From assembly GCF_009914755.1 (NCBI RefSeq), contig NC_060943.1: DNA of 64,000 bases; one strand, 5' to 3'. Made by a program: the position numbers and the translations under genes. Position 1 is the stretch's first letter. The number at the start of each line of letters is the position of its first letter. The notes under the pieces were generated by a model that was given only the letters and a program-made list of their open reading frames with translations, had not been told where the DNA came from and did not search any database. The stretch comes from the human T2T-CHM13v2.0 reference genome, Homo sapiens. This document shows positions 8,743-20,677 of this stretch, piece after piece.

Positions 8743-8863
8743 CTTGAGCTTTAAACTGAAGAGTTTCGCTTACAGCCTCACCACTGGCATCCATGTGATA
8801 TCGTTTGGCTTTTTCTTGTAATACAGCATCAAAAGTCTCCTGTGTAATTCGTCTGGCTGCCAT
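8743..8863 (-). CDS. SUGP2: SUGP2 coding part of exon 2 ([40 protein letters not shown]); whole exon 8743-8874
   Basis: Translated by hand. ATG at 8863-8861 in strong context (AACATGG), acceptor ctctctcaccatag before 8874, donor GTAAAA at 8742. In frame with exon 3. Confidence 0.93.
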
Positions 8864-8916
8864 GTTATTTTGCCCTATGGTGAGAGAGAAAAAAATACAC
8901 TAAGAGCAACAACTTG

Positions 8917-10254
8917 GAGCTGGGCGCGGTGGCTCATACCTGTAATCCTGGCACTTTGGGAGGTCGAGGTGGGCGGATCACCTGAGCTCAGGAGTTCGAG
9001 ACCAGCCTAGGCAACATGATGAAACTAAAATACAAAAAATTCAGGCTGGGTGTGGTGGCTCACACCTGTAATCCCAGGACTTTGGGAGGCTGAGGTGAGC
9101 GGATCATTTAAAGTCAGGAGTTGGAGACCAGCCTGGCCAACATGGCAAAACCCTGTCTCTACTAAAAATACAAAAATTAGCCGGGCATGGTGGTGCCTGC
9201 CTTTAATCCCAGCTACTTGGGAGGCTGTGGCAAGAGAATTGCTTGAACCCAGGAGGCGGAGGTTGCAGTGGGCCGAGATCATGCCACTGCACTCCAGCAT
9301 GGGTAACAGAGTGAGACTCCGTCTCAAAAAAAAAAAAAAAAAAATTTCACCAGGCATGGTGGCACGTGCCTGTAATCCCAAATACTCAGGAGGCTGAGGC
9401 ATGGGAATTGCTTGAACCAGGGAGACAGAGGTTGCAGTGAGCCGAGATCATGCCACTGCCCTCCAGACTGGGGGACAGAGCGAGACTGTCTCAAAGAAAA
9501 AAAAAATGCGTGCTCACAGAACCTGCTCTATTTCACTTAATCCTCGAAGTAAGGAGGCAGTAATCCATAATCCTCGCATGGTACTTCAGAGGCAAGCTGG
9601 ACCCTTTTTATTTATCTTTTTTTTTTTTTTTTTTTAAGTAGAGACAGGGTTTTGCTAGGTTGGCCAGGCTGGTCTCGAACTCCTGACCTCAAGCAATCTG
9701 CCCACCTTGTCTGGACTCTTTTAAGGGGGTCTCTGCCCTCACGAAGTTCACAGGTGTGTGCTGGCTGAAAAGGAGCAAGACAAACCTTCTCTGGGCCCAT
9801 CTCCTTGGAATCCATTAAAAGCAGCTCTGTGAAAGCAGTTCTATCTGCTGGAGGAAGGTGTCAACCAACACACATAACTGAGCATAACAGAGTAGGAAGG
9901 GTGGGACCACAACCCTCGCAAATCGTGGTTAGGAAAGAAGAGATCAATCTTTTTTTTTTTTTTTCTTCCTTTTTTTGAGACTCTCCCTGTTGCCCAGGCT
10001 GGAGTGCAGTGGCATGATCTCGGCTAACTGCAACCTCCGCCTCCTGGACTCAAGCAATTCTCCTGCCTCAGCCTCCTGAGTAGCTGGGATTACAGGAGTC
10101 CGCCACCGCATCCGACTAATTTTTATATTTTAGGTAGAGATGGAGTTTCACCATGTTGGCCAGGCTGGTCTTGAATTCCTGACCTCAAGTGATTCGCCCG
10201 CTTCGGCCTCCCAAAGTGCTGGGATTCCAGGCCGTGAGCCACTGCGCCTGGCCC
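8917..10254. mobile_element. Alu cluster: nested (+) Alus 8917-9506, (-) Alus 9610-9710 and 9948-10254
   Basis: Alu consensus; a full Alu sits in the linker of another. Confidence 0.9.
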
Positions 10255-11230
10255 AGGATCACTCTTTTCCCATTCACAGACTCAGCAGGGCACAGAGGCT
10301 CTGAGAACTTCCTTCCCTTCTAAAAGAAGCCTCTTGACAGTGAGTGGCGGGACCCCCAACCAATGACAATGAACTAGTGACAGTTCATTCTGCGCTGGGT
10401 CCTTGCGCGATCTCCCAACCACCCACTGAAGAGGCGGGTCCTGTTATGAATGACATTAGGGTGAGGAGGCAAAGGGAGACAGACTCAACGACCCATTCAA
10501 GACCAGACAGCCCAGATTTGAACCTGGCAAAAAGGGTATTCGTGCATCCAAAGCCCCGAAGAATGAGTAAAAAGATTAAGCAACATTTTGGGGTCCAGGG
10601 GCTGCATCCTTAACCATCAAGATATCCCGCTTCGCAAAACCTCCAACTTCAAGAGACAACCCGTAGGGTCCATTTCCCATCACGATCACCGCCTCCCCCA
10701 CCCGCCTCCCCCAGTCCCATCCTTCAGCCCTTTTCCCGGGGCGCCCCCTTGTTCTCTGCTGGCAAAGGGCAGGGTTCCCGGGTCAGGTGACCCAGGTTCA
10801 AATCACACGATTCTAAGCTTTCTGTGCTTCCGTTTCCCCACCTATGGAATGGGCAGCCAGTAAAGGGGCTGGTGTGGGGGCTGAACCGGTTCTAAAGAGG
10901 GCAAGGGCCCGATGCAGCGCTGGGCGCCGTTATCTCCTCCCGAGCGGGGGCCGCTCCGAGTTCGGGAGGAATGAATGAACGACTGAACCAATGAGCCTTT
11001 GTGGACGCGGCCCGCCGTCTCCCGGCCTCTGCGGGCGAGGAAATGGGGGCGCCGGGCCCGGGAGGCCGCAGCCGGCCACCCAGGCCAACCCGGCGGGGAC
11101 GCGGCCGCCGCCGCAGCCAGAGGGCCGAGCCTGCGACGCCATCACGGAGCCCGGGGCGGGCCCCCAAGGCCGAGCCCGAGCTTCCCACCCCGGGAGCCAC
11201 CCACCGACGACGCCAGGGCCCGGGCCTCAC

Positions 11231-11420
11231 CCCGAGACCACCGCGCGCGGAGCCACCCCCGCCGCCGCCTCAGGCTCCTCACCCGCCGCCGCCGCCGCGC
11301 GAGGCGGGGACATGCAAATGAACCAACGGTCTCCGCAGCGCCGCGCCGCGCAGGCGCAAGCCGCCGCCGAGTCCTGGTGCGCAGGCGCGGGCCGCCGCGG
11401 CCCGGCTCTCTTGCGCAAGC
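11231..11420 (-). other. SUGP2: SUGP2 exon 1 with two alternative GTGAGG donors (exon ends 11231 or 11283); TSS approximate
   Basis: Two GTGAGG donor matches on the minus strand inside the CpG island. The 5' end cannot be fixed from sequence alone. Confidence 0.65.
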
Positions 11421-17915: not shown

Positions 17916-18249
17916 CTGAATGCATGATCAGATTCGGGTTTGAGATTTTGGCACGATGACTTCACAGGTGCATTTTGTTCTTGTTCAGGAGGTAGGTGTT
18001 GCTGGTTTCTCTTGATGATGTGAGATCAAGCAGTAGACTGAGTTCCTGTCTACCCCTTGTTGGGCTCCCATCAGTTTTACACCTGATGGTTTTGGATCCT
18101 GTGGGATCATTATCTGTTTCTCTCCTGTCACAGCTGATCAGCTGGAATCGGAAGCAGAACTTTTCCTCATCCTCTTTTTATAACCTGGGACTCATTTGTA
18201 CAAGGGAGGCAGGTTAAGTGCTAGGTTTTTTTTAAAAAAATTGTTACTA

Positions 18250-20312
18250 ATTATTGTAGAGACAGTGTCTCGCTACGTTGGCCAGGCTGGTCTTGAACTC
18301 CTGGATTCAAGTGATCCTCCCATCTCAGCCTCCTGAGTAGTAGCTGGGAGTACAAGAGCATGCCACCACTCCCTGCCAAGAGCTGGATTCTTGGCCAGTT
18401 TTCAGAAGCCTGAGCTGTATTTGTTTTAGTATTATGAAAGCACAGAGTTTGACTTTTTTTTTTTTTTTGCAACATCGTCTGACTGTCAGCCAGGCTGGAG
18501 TGCAATGGCATGATCTCGGCTCACTGCAACCTCCGCCTCTGTGCTCAAGTGGTTCTCCTACCTCGGTCTCCCTGATTGCTGGGATTACAGACGTGAGCCA
18601 CCACACCTGGCCCAGATTTTGATTTTGATATGTACTGGATTTTTTTTTAATGCTCACTTGTCTCATCTGTAGCTACCAGGCACCCCTTAGGGTTTGGAAG
18701 CTTCCTTGCTTCCTGGTCTCACAAGACCCCAGCGTTACCTGCCCCATGACCTGCTGGGACTTGGAATCAGCCATTCCTCCAGAAGCCCTGGCTCCTTGTT
18801 TTTAAAGATTTTATGTAGAGACAGGGCCTCCCCATGTTGTCCAGGCTAGTGTTGAACTCCTGGCCTCAAGCCATCTTCCTGCCTCAGCCTCCCAAAGTGC
18901 TGGGATTACAGGAGTGAGCCACCTAGCCCTGGCCCCAGCTCCTTTTCGTGGGAAATGGTAGAAACCATACATGGTGTTAGAGGTATTCAGTGCTCCTGTG
19001 CTGTCATTTCTCCTAGGCATTTTTAGTTGCTATGACTAGAAAATTAGATCTTTGTTTACCTAAGAGAAAACACATGATGGGTTTATATGGATATTCCCAT
19101 TTCATATATAGGAGTTCTGAGATTTTTTTTCTCAACTTTATCGAGGTATAGGATGTACTTTTTTTTGAGACGGAATCTTGCTCTGTTGCCCAGGCTGGTG
19201 TGCAGTGGTGCAATCTCGGCTCACTGCAACCTCTGCCTCCTGGGTTCAAATGATTCTCCTGCCTCAGCCTCCCGAGTGGCTGGGATCACAGGTGCCCGCC
19301 ACCATGCCCGGTTAATTTTTGTATTTTTAACAGAGATGGGATTTCACCATGCTGGCCAGGCTGGTCTTAAACTCCTGACCTCAGGTCATCCACCTGCCTC
19401 GGCCTCCCAAAGTGTTGGGATTACAGGCATGCGCCACTGCACCCAGCGAATTGTATTTAATATAGTGTATATCTTATACTATATATGGTACATAAATGAT
19501 ACAAATATATTGCATATGTTTACATTATACAACTTGACGATTTTATATGCATGCAGATTGTGAAATACTCACCTCAATCAACAGTTACCTTTTTCTTTTT
19601 TGTGGTGAGAACACTTAGAATCTACCCTCTTAGCAAATTTCAAGTATACCATACAATATTGTTAATTATAGGGAGTTCCGAGTTTTTAGTTGATAGTACG
19701 ATGTTAGAATCTTTTTTTTTTCTTTTTGAGTCAGGGGCTTGCTCTGTTGCCCAGGTTGGAGTGCAGTGGCGCAATCTTGGCCTCCCAGGCTCAAGCGATC
19801 CTGCTACCTCAGCCTCCTGAGTAGTTGGGACTACAGGCATGTGCCACCACACTCAGCTAATTTTTATTTTTATTTTGGTAGAGACAGACTTTTGCCATGT
19901 TGTCCAGGCTGGTCTTGAACTCCTGGGCTCAAGCAATCCTCCTGCCTCAGCTTCCCAAAGTGTTGGGATTATAGGCATTGACCCACTGCGCCCAGCCAGA
20001 ATCTTTTTTCTTTTATTCTGATTCCTAATAAGATAATCATTATTATTTGCTACATCCGTAATAGTTTCAGAATAACATTACTAGTATCATTATATTAAAG
20101 AACCACCTTTCTTAGATAAAATGTAGTAAACTCTGTGTTCTCTCCTACACTTTGTTTTTTTTTCCCAAGACAGGGTCTCACTCTGTGGCCCAGGCTGGAG
20201 TGTAGTAGTGTGATCATGGCTCACTGCAGCCTTGACCTCCCAGGCTCAAGTGATCCTCCCACCTCGGCCTCTCAGAGTGCCGGGATTACAGGCTAAGCCA
20301 TCACACCCGGCC
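18250..20312 (-). mobile_element. Series of antisense Alus with an L1 fragment (about 19450-19680)
   Basis: Alu consensus; L1MA/MB-like text (gtggtgagaacacttagaatctaccctcttagcaaatttcaagtat). Confidence 0.85.
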
Positions 20313-20510
20313 TCTTCTGTATTTGCAGAAGTTCTAGGGAAGTAGGGATATCACCCTTTCCTGTGATAACAGGTGGGAAGAATTTCTCCAGGGTGGTTGT
20401 AGGGCTCTGGTCGCTGGTAGATGCTTCCTAAGTGGCGTTTTCAAGGTGGCCAGGCCCTGCCATTGCCTGCTCACCCTTGAGGTAGCTCTCTCTTTGCCCT
20501 AACCTCTCAG

Positions 20511-20677
20511 CTCAGGAGCATCTATCGGCTGCACGCCAACATCAACACAGGCGAAGATGGTCTCCAAGCGCATTGCCCAGGAGACCTTTGATGCAGCTGT
20601 GCGCGAGAACATCGAGGAGTTTGCGATGGGGCCAGAGGAGGCAGTGAAAGAGGCCGTGGAGCAGTTTGAATCGCAAG
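20511..20677 (+). CDS. ARMC6: ARMC6 exon 3; main ATG at 20557 ([40 protein letters not shown])
   Basis: Acceptor cctaacctctcag at 20510, strong Kozak AAGATGG, donor AAG|GTAGGG at 20678. Confidence 0.93.

What the first reader, a model, noticed from the sequence alone, without database searches (positions are those of the whole stretch)
8743..20677. Head-to-head neighbours SUGP2 and ARMC6 start with homologous first coding exons
Seen: SUGP2 8863-8743 (-) encodes [40 protein letters not shown] and ARMC6 20557-20677 (+) encodes [40 protein letters not shown]. They share 14/40 identities ungapped and 18/41 with one gap each. Both are exactly 121 nt from ATG to donor, and both end CAA G|gta (phase 1). 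At DNA level CAGGAGACTTTTGATGC versus CAGGAGACCTTTGATGC match 16/17. The two proteins are otherwise unrelated (SURP/G-patch versus ARM repeats). Inference: an inverted duplication around the promoter gave SUGP2 the ARMC6 N-terminal exon and may have created the bidirectional arrangement itself. Retention of RIxQETFDA suggests a selected small helical module, so the co-transcribed proteins may share a partner, heterodimerise or compete. ARMC6 is the likelier donor because it is the broadly conserved family.
Basis: partly seen in the sequence, partly recalled or inferred. Interest (0 to 1): 0.88.

Follow-up and report, generated by a model that had tools for sequence, protein, structure and literature searches.

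The report
Neighbour genes share one copied exon
Two otherwise unrelated human genes that sit back to back on chromosome 19, SUGP2 and ARMC6, really do begin with the same ancient 40-residue module, most likely because SUGP2 long ago captured a flipped copy of its neighbour's first coding exon.

Summary
The peptides at 8743-8863(-) and 20557-20677(+) align at 18/41 identities (BLASTP E 3e-9). None of 20,000 shuffles reached the score, and profile-profile probability is 98%. In a six-frame search of the whole 3.1-Gb genome, each peptide's only other candidate is the other exon.

The homology is already catalogued. The protein database lists the same Pfam family, PF27652.1, on both ARMC6 and SUGP2 N-termini. 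I found no paper that mentions it.

ARMC6 is the donor. A module profile finds 1034 proteins, and among the 150 listed the long ones that are not SUGP2 are ARMC6-like. SUGP2 carries the module in placentals, marsupials, platypus and birds, so the capture predates amniotes. Slowly evolving SUGP2 copies are closer to ARMC6.

A local inverted partial duplication is the simplest origin but is inferred, not shown. SUGP2's copy keeps the hydrophobic core and the I-x-x-E-T-F-D motif, but its net charge changed from about -7 to +1. That points to a changed function rather than a simply shared partner. This is a real, moderately interesting chimeric-gene case.

The parts
8743..8863 (-). SUGP2 copy of the module. 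It runs from the ATG to the phase-1 donor, 121 nt and 40 codons plus 1 nt. It lies in exon 8743-8874, which has 11 nt of 5' UTR before the ATG.
   Evidence: It is the only non-self candidate in the whole genome for the ARMC6 peptide. tblastn with full-length ARMC6 hits 8741-8896(-) at E 1.2e-4.
20557..20677 (+). ARMC6 original of the module. It runs from the ATG to the phase-1 donor, 121 nt, in exon 20511-20677.
   Evidence: All 120 ARMC6 rows listed carry it. AF2 predicts a bridge at 4-5, helix 8-20, helix 26-39 and a bridge at 42-43, with pLDDT 78-93.
21793..21875 (+). Next ARMC6 exon. It encodes (G)VDLSNIVK..., which continues the conserved N-terminal mini-domain of ARMC6. It has no counterpart in SUGP2.
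   Evidence: G41 and L44 are invariant and I47 nearly invariant in the ARMC6 alignment. In SUGP2 the similarity stops at the exon end.
2410..4017 (-). SUGP2 recipient exon. It is entered in phase 1 and encodes residues 41-576, including the conserved helical domain.
   Evidence: One search gives an open frame from 4015. One search retrieved SUGP2 orthologues with residues 262-500 of this exon.
11231..11724 (.). Shared CpG-island bidirectional promoter with the two non-coding first exons: SUGP2 11231-11311 (-) and ARMC6 11397-11724 (+). By the hub's annotation the transcription starts are 85 bp apart.
   Evidence: GC is 0.78 in 11000-11499. Sequence. Exon coordinates come from the hub's gene table.
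11925..12032 (+). ARMC6 exon 2, with an upstream ATG at 12004. It gives the human Select isoform 25 extra residues in front of the module.
   Evidence: Among the hits, only primate ARMC6 rows (P0004, P0005, P0006, P0009) show this extension.

Best explanation
SUGP2 is a chimeric gene. Its first coding exon is an old copy of the first coding exon of its head-to-head neighbour ARMC6.

That exon encodes the start of the ARMC6 N-terminal mini-domain: a short strand, helix 8-20, a loop and helix 26-39. This mini-domain is the hallmark of ARMC6 proteins across a very wide range of organisms.

Most likely a local partial duplication placed an inverted copy of the ARMC6 5' end on the other side of the promoter region. 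The copied exon kept its phase-1 donor and was spliced in frame onto a SUGP1-like SURP/G-patch gene. This happened before birds and mammals diverged.

Since then SUGP2 has kept the residues that build the helix-loop-helix (I6, F11, V14/15, Y22, M24, F37) and the N-terminal I-x-x-E-T-F-D motif. Its exposed acidic residues have become basic (N18K, E21R, E38K). The module therefore probably still folds alike but presents a new surface.

Shown: the homology, the direction of transfer, the minimum age, the exon-precise limits and the charge change. Inferred: the local inverted-duplication mechanism, the fold in SUGP2 and any function.
For: Homology:
- BLASTP E 3e-9. None of 20,000 shuffles reach the score.
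- An HMM built only from 69 unique ARMC6 modules scores SUGP2 proteins at up to 43.0 bits, E 3.2e-6 for a library of 1.84e9. The weakest, rodent-type sequences score 15.4 bits, E 1.3e3.
- The reverse HMM, from 36 unique SUGP2 modules, scores ARMC6 at up to 36.9 bits, E 2.9e-4, and at worst 17.7 bits.
- hhalign gives probability 98.0%, E 2.4e-13 over 39 columns.
- Whole-genome six-frame searches with either peptide give two candidates each: the query's own exon and the other exon.
- The database lists PF27652.1 on all 120 listed ARMC6 rows, on 46 of 47 SUGP2 rows, and on 4 of 4 marsupial/monotreme and 50 of 53 bird SUGP2 rows.

Exon precision:
- Both boundaries are CAA G|gt, phase 1.
- Read-through fragments from other species break at the same point: 72 ARMC6-type and 13 SUGP2-type fragments read 'Q|g'.
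- tblastn with full-length ARMC6 finds nothing else outside its own exons. The next hit has E 0.12.

Direction:
- The module profile finds 1034 proteins at E<=1e-3.
- Of 30 long hits that are not SUGP2, 19 carry ARM-type Pfam matches, 11 carry none, and none has SURP or G-patch.
- SUGP2 modules form one group with SH-aLRT 99 on a stem of 1.02 changes per column.

Age and divergence:
- The module is present in placental, marsupial, platypus and bird SUGP2.
- The platypus copy aligns to ARMC6 without gaps. It reaches Smith-Waterman scores up to 123 (22-23 of 40 identical), with a median of 104 over 251 ARMC6 modules. The medians are 81 for human and 51 for the mouse-type copy.

Selection:
- Mammal-bird identity is 0.51 in the module, 0.35-0.43 in the neighbouring linkers and 0.72-0.79 in the structured domains.

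Surface change:
- Net charge averages -7.2 over 128 unique ARMC6 40-mers and +1.1 over 71 unique SUGP2 40-mers.
- K18 is fixed in SUGP2 where N18 is fixed in ARMC6.

Linkage:
- ARMC6 and SUGP2 rows of the same species show the same longest_contig length in 10 mammals. The smallest is 436,970 bases, in Carlito. Taking equal lengths to mean the same scaffold is my inference.
Against: - No similarity survives outside the coding part. Within 1.5-kb flanks the only strong blastn hits are interspersed repeats in both orientations. The duplication itself leaves no direct trace.
- The acceptor sites differ: 11 nt versus 46 nt upstream of the ATG.
- Where the SUGP2 group attaches inside the ARMC6 tree is unresolved, with a long-branch warning. 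The module alone cannot date the event relative to ARMC6 diversification.
- Non-amniote SUGP2 was not seen, because 53 of the 173 hits were not listed.
- Gene order outside mammals could not be examined.
- The AF2 model of full-length SUGP2 is poor (mean pLDDT 39.9). It shows only a low-confidence helix at 2-22 for the module, so the fold in SUGP2 is not supported by a model.
- In muroid rodents the module is shortened to 37 residues, has F11L and lacks the PF27652 label. It is therefore not indispensable everywhere.
- Predicted isoforms without the module exist in several species.
Confidence: 0.8

Rival explanations
1. The exon came from ARMC6 but not through a local inverted duplication. It could have arrived by a copy from elsewhere, by a whole-gene ARMC6 duplicate that later decayed and was rearranged, or by a transcript-mediated route. 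On this view the present head-to-head adjacency is secondary or coincidental.
For: No flanking DNA similarity, no mirrored acceptor and no other ARMC6 exon relic remain, so the local mechanism is not directly shown. The attachment point of SUGP2 in the module tree is unresolved.
Against: In a 3.1-Gb genome the only two copies lie 11.7 kb apart, in opposite orientation, on either side of one CpG-island promoter. That would be a remarkable coincidence for an unlinked origin. The copied piece keeps a splice donor in the same phase, which argues against an intron-less processed-transcript copy.
Confidence: 0.12
2. The transfer went the other way: ARMC6 gained the module from SUGP2.
For: None found. 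The pairwise similarity alone is symmetric.
Against: The module profile finds 1034 proteins. Of the 150 listed, 143 are ARMC6-type and only 7 are SUGP2-type. The diverse long ones are ARM-repeat proteins. In the ARMC6 alignment all 13 invariant columns lie in residues 8-44 (the rows were chosen through the module, so this is biased). SUGP2 modules form one derived, long-stemmed group.
Confidence: 0.02
3. The resemblance is chance or convergence of two short acidic helical N-termini.
For: The peptides are short (40 residues) and helical. At genome scale the single-sequence E-values are only 4.2 and 3.0.
Against: None of 20,000 shuffles reach the score. hhalign gives 98%. The ARMC6-only profile reaches E 3e-6 at a library size of 1.84e9. 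Similarity rises, and the gaps disappear, in slowly evolving SUGP2 orthologues. Length, start and intron phase are identical. The same curated Pfam family is listed on both proteins.
Confidence: 0.01
4. Functional rival: the SUGP2 module still does what the ARMC6 module does. It would bind the same partner or the ARMC6 ARM domain, so the two co-transcribed proteins would share, compete for or exchange an interaction.
For: The I-x-x-E-T-F-D motif and the hydrophobic positions are retained. M1, I6, E9, T10, F11, D12 and F37 are above 80% in both families.

Complex prediction (ESMFold2, alignments not used) of ARMC6 residues 55-470 with SUGP2 residues 1-45 gave the verdict 'weak support'. The score was 0.47, the median of runs at 0.02, 0.64 and 0.47, against a best of 3 controls of 0.01. 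The runs agree in at least 17% of contacts, and the partner's pLDDT is at least 40. The mark was reached by 51 of 78 solved complexes and 2 of 108 mismatched pairs. At 0.60 or under it was reached by only 5 of those 78 solved complexes and by all 4 mismatches that passed (of 180).
Against: The tool itself says such a weak pass is more often wrong than right unless the guess was likely beforehand. It also says a close relative of a true partner can pass by likeness, and here the partner is a relative of ARMC6's own N-terminal module. The exposed face is charge-reversed and fixed that way in SUGP2. SUGP2 lacks the GVDLSNI continuation that completes the ARMC6 mini-domain. ARMC6 is not mentioned in the 2026 SUGP2 interactome preprint: that preprint is absent from the six papers holding both names, and ARMC6 did not appear in the passages read. 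Its supplementary tables were not seen.
Confidence: 0.15

Closest known systems
Pfam family PF27652
   Same: The protein database's precomputed annotation puts this one family on the N-terminal 40 or so residues of both ARMC6 and SUGP2. That includes 72-112-residue fragments that contain nothing else recognisable. The domain-level homology is therefore already catalogued.
   Different: A family entry says nothing about the genomic arrangement, the exon-precise limits, the direction or age of the transfer, or the charge reversal. The local Pfam copy lacks the family, so I could not read its name, length or description. No paper holds the accession.
Chimeric genes made by partial duplication and exon capture (exon shuffling; jingwei-type new genes; recalled, not searched here)
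   Same: A single exon from a donor gene, bounded by an intron whose phase fits the recipient, is joined in frame to an unrelated gene and kept by selection.
   Different: Here the donor and the recipient are immediate head-to-head neighbours sharing one CpG-island promoter. The captured piece is the start-codon exon, and the event is more than about 300 million years old rather than recent.
BRCA1 / NBR2 and pseudo-BRCA1 / NBR1 5'-end duplication (recalled; a preprint on the locus, 10.1101/2025.11.08.687349, appeared in the listing but was not read)
   Same: A partial duplication of a gene's promoter and first exons leaves copies head to head with other genes around bidirectional promoters.
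   Different: As I recall it, the duplicated BRCA1 5' end there is a non-coding pseudo-copy. Here the copied exon is translated as the N-terminus of a different protein and is conserved across amniotes.
N-terminal regulatory segments of ARM-repeat proteins, such as the importin-beta-binding (IBB) segment of importin-alpha (established knowledge; a resemblance of function only)
   Same: It is a short N-terminal segment ahead of an ARM solenoid. In ARMC6 the module is predicted with high confidence in the full-length model (pLDDT 78-93), as expected if it packs on the solenoid. The ARM domain of ARMC6 matches importin-alpha and designed ARM proteins.
   Different: There is no sequence similarity to IBB. 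The ARMC6 module is strongly acidic whereas IBB is basic. Docking in cis could not be read from the outputs, because no coordinates or contacts were returned.

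Membership tests
Pfam PF27652 (N-terminal module of ARMC6 and SUGP2) | Match to the family's profile in the N-terminal 40 or so residues | tested here: met
   Read from the database's precomputed column, not rerun. It is listed on 120 of 120 listed ARMC6 rows, 46 of 47 SUGP2 rows, and 4 of 4 marsupial/monotreme and 50 of 53 bird SUGP2 rows. 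The local Pfam copy lacks the family. My own profiles confirm the relationship.
ARMC6 family | ARM-repeat solenoid following the module | tested here: not met
   This row concerns SUGP2. Its precomputed domains are only PF01805 (SURP), PF01585 (G-patch) and PF27652. tblastn with full-length ARMC6 finds no further ARMC6-like exon in SUGP2's part of the window. SUGP2 shares a module with ARMC6 but is not an ARMC6 family member.
SURP/G-patch (SUGP) family | Tandem SURP domains and a C-terminal G-patch | tested here: met
   Met for SUGP2: precomputed PF01805 and PF01585 on the full-length rows. Not met for ARMC6: only ARM-type families. The SUGP1 locus is not a candidate in the whole-genome module searches.
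Chimeric gene by partial duplication / exon capture | Similarity confined to one exon and ending at the exon boundary, with matching intron phase | tested here: met
   Both exons end CAA G|gt in phase 1. The alignment ends at the last codon. Read-through fragments of other species break at the same point: 72 ARMC6-type and 13 SUGP2-type. A further 23 ARMC6-type fragments, of unknown taxa, break one base earlier, reading 'Q|v'.
Chimeric gene by partial duplication / exon capture | Donor family older and broader than the recipient's copy | tested here: met
   There are 1034 module hits. Of 30 long hits that are not SUGP2, 19 have ARM-type Pfam matches, 11 have none, and none has SURP or G-patch. 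The SUGP2 copies form one group and were seen only in amniotes.
Chimeric gene by partial duplication / exon capture | Residual similarity of the flanking non-coding DNA | tested here: not met
   blastn of 1.5-kb flanks finds only interspersed repeats in both orientations. This is expected for an event older than the bird-mammal split, so it does not weigh against the model.
Local inverted duplication at a bidirectional promoter | Head-to-head adjacency conserved wherever the SUGP2 exon exists | not testable with these tools
   No vertebrate genome other than the window's own could be searched. The only hint is the identical longest_contig length for the ARMC6 and SUGP2 rows of 10 mammals.
IBB-like cis-docking N-terminal segment | The module packs on the ARM solenoid of the same or another chain | tested here: inconclusive
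   The module has high pLDDT in the full-length ARMC6 model, but no contacts were returned. The trans complex with the SUGP2 module scored 0.47 against a best control of 0.01, verdict 'weak support'. The tool's counts are 51 of 78 solved complexes and 2 of 108 mismatched pairs at the mark, and at 0.60 or under 5 of those 78 solved complexes and all 4 mismatches that passed, of 180.

The most novel reading that the evidence does not exclude
The SUGP2 N-terminal module is a detached copy of the ARMC6 'lid'. It docks in trans on the ARM solenoid of ARMC6, at the place of ARMC6's own N-terminal module. The two proteins made from one bidirectional promoter would then be physically coupled, with SUGP2, a chromatin-bound intron-binding splicing repressor, recruiting or being regulated by ARMC6. 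The inverted duplication would have created both the shared promoter and the interaction in a single step.
Probability: 0.12. Interest if true: 0.75.

Novelty: new member of a known kind. Interest (0 to 1): 0.45.

Why it matters
Both proteins are poorly understood. A 2024 paper states that the function of ARMC6 is unknown (PMC11374303, passages). A 2026 preprint calls SUGP2 poorly characterised and describes it only as tandem SURP domains plus a G-patch (10.64898/2026.06.30.735655, passages).

Recognising that SUGP2 starts with the most conserved piece of ARMC6 gives a concrete 40-residue element to delete, swap or use as bait in both proteins.

It is also a clean, old example of a start-codon exon being copied across a bidirectional promoter and kept in a different protein for more than 300 million years. 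Such an event links the origin of a chimeric gene to the origin, or at least the use, of a shared promoter.

The fixed charge reversal offers a simple test of whether a duplicated module keeps its partner or acquires a new one.

Tried and rejected
- Local Pfam scan of the two 40-residue peptides: no family even at E 10. A 93-residue ARMC6 fragment also gave none. The reason is that the local copy lacks PF27652, so its name and limits stay unknown.
- ESM Atlas look-up of the SUGP2 N-terminus: no usable hit.
- Solved structures: none for the module. The profile's best match has E 0.11. ARMC6 matches only ARM-repeat chains from residue 193 or so onward. Foldseek with the ARMC6 model returns designed ARM, catenin and ciliary ARM proteins only.
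- AF2 model of full-length SUGP2: mean pLDDT 39.9, uninformative for the module.
- Flanking DNA and other ARMC6 exon relics: none.
- Module tree: SUGP2 comes out as one group, but its attachment is unresolved with a long-branch warning. Left out of that tree were duplicates, modules under 36 residues, and 55 of the 89 unique SUGP2 rows, removed by random thinning.
- The representative search listing (150 of 1034) and the SUGP2 orthologue listing (120 of 173) were both cut off. No non-amniote SUGP2 and no complete census of architectures was obtained.
- A PTS2 lead for mouse Armc6 concerns another motif and is irrelevant (PMC2638156, passages).
- The ARMC review's 'Inscuteable-like' N-terminal region refers to the helical repeats, not to this module, and does not mention SUGP2 (PMC8666550, passages).
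- Not in print, as far as searched. 'SUGP2' with 'ARMC6' gives 6 papers, all GWAS, copy-number or fusion lists judging by their titles and abstracts. 'PF27652' gives 0 papers. At least 2 of ARMC6, SFRS14, SURP and Sugp2 gives 102 papers, 20 listed, none about homology. I also ran 'ARMC6' alone (75 papers, 25 listed) and 'SUGP2' alone (146 papers, 25 listed).
- Sampson and Hewitt 2003 (Gene 305:91), which first described SFRS14, is cited in PMC8558236 but was not available to read.

Full report
**1. The observation**

The two stretches are exactly as described. On the minus strand, 8863-8743 reads ATG ... CAA G followed by gtaaaa. It translates to a 40-residue peptide that starts [13 protein letters not shown]. 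On the plus strand, 20557-20677 reads ATG ... CAA G followed by gtaggg. It translates to a 40-residue peptide that starts [13 protein letters not shown]. Both are 121 nt from start codon to donor, with the intron after the first base of codon 41.

BLASTP aligns them with 18 of 41 identities, 27 of 41 positives and one gap on each side, at 32 bits and E 3e-9 for the single comparison. The Smith-Waterman score is 74. Twenty thousand shuffles of the ARMC6 peptide give mean 21.0, sd 4.2 and maximum 50, so none reaches 74, whether or not Met is fixed at position 1.

At the DNA level, 69 of 117 aligned coding bases agree: 26, 28 and 15 of 39 at codon positions 1, 2 and 3. The copies are therefore old, and the 16/17 match over QETFDA is mostly a by-product of protein conservation.

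One correction to the title. In the RefSeq Select ARMC6 transcript, the coding sequence begins at 12004 in the upstream exon, which encodes MSERCCSRY. It runs in frame through 20511-20556, so in that human isoform the module Met is residue 26. Among the retrieved ARMC6 proteins, only primate rows have this extension. Elsewhere the module Met, or a Met a few residues before it, is the start.

**2. Is it homology?**

Yes, by every test available.

- I cut the module out of the proteins found and built separate profiles. The profile from 69 unique ARMC6 modules, with no SUGP2 sequence in it, scores SUGP2 proteins at up to 43.0 bits. That is E 3.2e-6 even for a library of 1.84 billion sequences. 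The weakest sequences, the divergent rodent ones, score 15.4 bits and are not significant at that size.
- The reverse profile, from 36 unique SUGP2 modules, scores ARMC6 at up to 36.9 bits, E 2.9e-4.
- Profile against profile (hhalign) gives 98.0% probability and E 2.4e-13 over 39 columns.
- A six-frame search of the window's whole genome (3.1 Gb, 24 contigs) with the ARMC6 peptide returns two candidates: its own exon and the SUGP2 exon. The SUGP2 peptide returns the mirror result. The genome-scale single-sequence E-values of the cross hits are only 4.2 and 3.0, so these searches show uniqueness rather than significance. SUGP1, which lies on the same chromosome, is not a candidate.
- tblastn with a full-length ARMC6 protein against the 64-kb window finds the ARMC6 exons and the SUGP2 exon (8741-8896 minus, E 1.2e-4). 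The next hit has E 0.12.

**3. It is already catalogued**

The large protein database carries precomputed Pfam labels. The accession PF27652.1 appears on:

- all 120 listed ARMC6 rows;
- 46 of 47 SUGP2 rows;
- SUGP2 of marsupials, platypus and most birds.

It also appears on 72-112-residue fragments that contain only the module followed by translated intron. So Pfam already has one family covering both N-termini.

The Pfam copy I could scan does not hold that family, so I know neither its name nor its description.

In the paper library I found no statement of the relationship. The six papers that hold both gene names are association, copy-number or fusion lists. The accession occurs in no paper. 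The ARMC review (PMC8666550, passages), the mouse Sugp2 paper (PMC8558236, passages) and the 2026 G-patch preprint (passages) all describe the proteins without it.

**4. Which way, and when?**

A profile of 25 module fragments from both families was run against 1.84 billion cluster representatives. It finds 1034 proteins at E<=1e-3 and 499 at E<=1e-10, of which only the best 150 are listed.

The listed modules are overwhelmingly ARMC6-type and very diverse in the positions that vary. Seven are SUGP2-type. I scanned 30 of the longer hits that are not SUGP2. Nineteen have ARM-type Pfam matches, eleven have none, and none has SURP or G-patch. In an alignment of 31 full-length ARMC6-like proteins, all 13 invariant columns lie in residues 8-44. 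This is biased, because the rows were found through the module, but it shows how strongly ARMC6 keeps it.

SUGP2 orthologues were retrieved through the conserved helical domain of the large exon, with 173 hits and 120 listed. They comprise placentals, three marsupial clusters, platypus and 53 bird clusters. The module is at their N-terminus.

The platypus and marsupial copies are 40 residues long, align to ARMC6 without any gap, and are followed by Gly, as in ARMC6. Their Smith-Waterman scores against 251 ARMC6 modules reach 123 (22-23 of 40 identical) with a median of 104. The medians are 81 for the human copy and 51 for the mouse-type copy. A copy that looks more like the donor the more slowly it has evolved is what descent predicts.

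In a tree of 223 unique modules, the 34 sampled SUGP2 rows form one group (SH-aLRT 99) on a long stem of 1.02 changes per column. Where the stem attaches is not resolved.

Conclusions: ARMC6 is the donor, there was one capture event, and it is older than the bird-mammal split. An upper bound could not be set, because non-amniote SUGP2 rows, if any, were among the 53 hits not listed.

**5. Exon-level event and mechanism**

The similarity starts at the start codon and stops at the donor. The next ARMC6 exon encodes (G)VDLSNIVK.... This stretch is part of the conserved ARMC6 N-terminal mini-domain, with G41 and L44 invariant and I47 nearly so, and SUGP2 has nothing like it.

Unspliced fragments from other species break at the same place. 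Seventy-two ARMC6-type and thirteen SUGP2-type fragments continue 'Q g...' into unrelated sequence, as a phase-1 intron read through would give. Another 23 ARMC6-type fragments, of unknown taxa, continue 'Q v...', as a phase-0 intron one base earlier would give. SUGP2 thus shares the vertebrate-type boundary.

The two copies lie 11.7 kb apart, in opposite orientation, on either side of a CpG island (GC 0.78 in 11000-11499) that holds both non-coding first exons. By the hub's annotation the transcription starts are 85 bp apart.

The most economical history is a local partial duplication that put an inverted copy of the ARMC6 5' end next to, or into, a SUGP1-like gene, whose downstream exon accepted the phase-1 donor.

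This step is inferred. The 1.5-kb flanks share only interspersed repeats. The acceptors sit at different distances from the ATG (11 and 46 nt). I could not look at gene order outside this genome. A weak hint of conserved linkage is that the ARMC6 and SUGP2 rows of ten mammals list the same longest-contig length, the smallest being 436,970 bases. Whether the duplication also created the bidirectional arrangement is untested.

**6. What the module is and how it may work**

With a 31-sequence alignment, AlphaFold2 models ARMC6 well (mean pLDDT 91.9, pTM 0.86). It places the module as a short bridge at residues 4-5, helix 8-20, helix 26-39 and a bridge at 42-43. Block pLDDT values are 78, 89, 90, 93 and 86, before a low-confidence linker at 60 and then the ARM solenoid. 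No coordinates are returned, so I cannot say whether it packs on the solenoid. There is no solved structure of it.

The full-length SUGP2 model is poor (mean pLDDT 39.9) and gives only a low-confidence helix at 2-22.

Comparing 128 unique ARMC6 and 71 unique SUGP2 40-mers:

- M1, I6, E9, T10, F11, D12 and F37 are above 80% in both families. The other hydrophobic positions are kept in kind.
- ARMC6's invariant N18 is an invariant K in SUGP2. E21 becomes R (0.97) and E38 becomes K (1.00).
- Mean net charge goes from -7.2 to +1.1. For residues 16-24 it goes from -3.0 to +2.1.

Between mammals and birds the SUGP2 module is 51% identical. That is more than the flanking linkers (35-43%) and less than the structured domains (72-79%).

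My reading is that the fold and the N-terminal I-x-x-E-T-F-D motif are under selection in both proteins, but SUGP2's copy acquired and fixed a new basic surface. That fits a changed function better than a simply shared acidic-face partner. For a chromatin-bound, intron-binding protein (preprint passages), a nucleic-acid or new protein contact is plausible, but it is speculation.

The module is not indispensable everywhere. Muroid rodents have a 37-residue version with F11L that no longer carries the Pfam label. Predicted isoforms without the module exist in several species.

**7. The binding idea**

The tool (ESMFold2, alignments not used) folded ARMC6 residues 55-470 with SUGP2 residues 1-45. 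It returned the verdict 'weak support'.

- The score was 0.47, the median of runs at 0.02, 0.64 and 0.47. The best of 3 controls was 0.01.
- The runs agree in at least 17% of contacts, and the partner's pLDDT is at least 40.
- By the tool's calibration, the mark was reached by 51 of 78 solved complexes and 2 of 108 mismatched pairs. At 0.60 or under it was reached by only 5 of those 78 and by all 4 mismatches that passed (of 180). Such a pass is therefore more often wrong than right unless the guess was likely beforehand.
- The tool also warns that a close relative of a true partner can pass by likeness. That applies here if ARMC6's own module docks in cis.

I keep this as the novel case at low probability, not as part of the main explanation.

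**8. Verdict**

ARMC6 is the donor and the capture is pre-amniote. The local inverted-duplication mechanism is likely but inferred. The domain relationship is already in Pfam, while the genomic and evolutionary reading appears not to be in print in the library searched. It is a tidy, old example of a known kind of event, a chimeric gene made by exon capture, affecting two poorly understood proteins. Interest is moderate.

Noticed in passing
window 11925-12032 (+), ATG at 12004: The upstream ARMC6 coding exon, which gives the human Select isoform 25 extra N-terminal residues, is seen only in primate ARMC6 rows (P0004, P0005, P0006, P0009). By recall, its sequence resembles an old interspersed repeat of the MIR type. 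If so, this is an exonised repeat supplying a new start codon. The repeat identity was not tested.
   Followed up: partly
SUGP2 orthologues P0317, P0319-P0327, P0330: Muroid rodent SUGP2 has a shortened 37-residue module with F11L and T10S. It carries no PF27652 label. This suggests relaxed or altered constraint in that lineage.
   Followed up: partly
Bird SUGP2 rows P0337-P0389: In birds the end of the module reads ...HHFKAH followed by SRPVPR. Compared with platypus (...HQFKSQ G HSRS) the Q-G at the exon junction seems to be missing. The donor may have moved by six bases in birds. No bird DNA was available to check.
   Followed up: no
SUGP2 rows P0304-P0307, P0309, P0311, P0315: Several predicted SUGP2 isoforms or cluster representatives lack the module. 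They start at an alternative first exon or at an internal Met (MYDD.../MFGD...). The module may be optional through alternative 5' exons. The hub lists 40 human transcripts.
   Followed up: no
ARMC6-type fragments: Twenty-three unspliced ARMC6-type fragments of unknown taxa break as 'Q|v', one base before the vertebrate 'Q G|' boundary. This suggests a one-base difference in intron position (phase 0 versus phase 1) between lineages.
   Followed up: partly
window 7243-10374 and 19011-22177: Both exons are embedded in repeat-rich introns. About 300-nt elements are shared at 70-84% identity in both orientations, probably Alu-type. They account for all strong DNA matches between the two regions and are unrelated to the old exon duplication.
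   Followed up: yes
ARMC6 alignment A2: In 31 ARMC6-like proteins, all 13 invariant columns fall within residues 8-44, and none lies in the ARM repeats. The rows were chosen through the module, so this is biased. It nonetheless suggests that the N-terminal mini-domain is the functional signature of ARMC6.
   Followed up: partly
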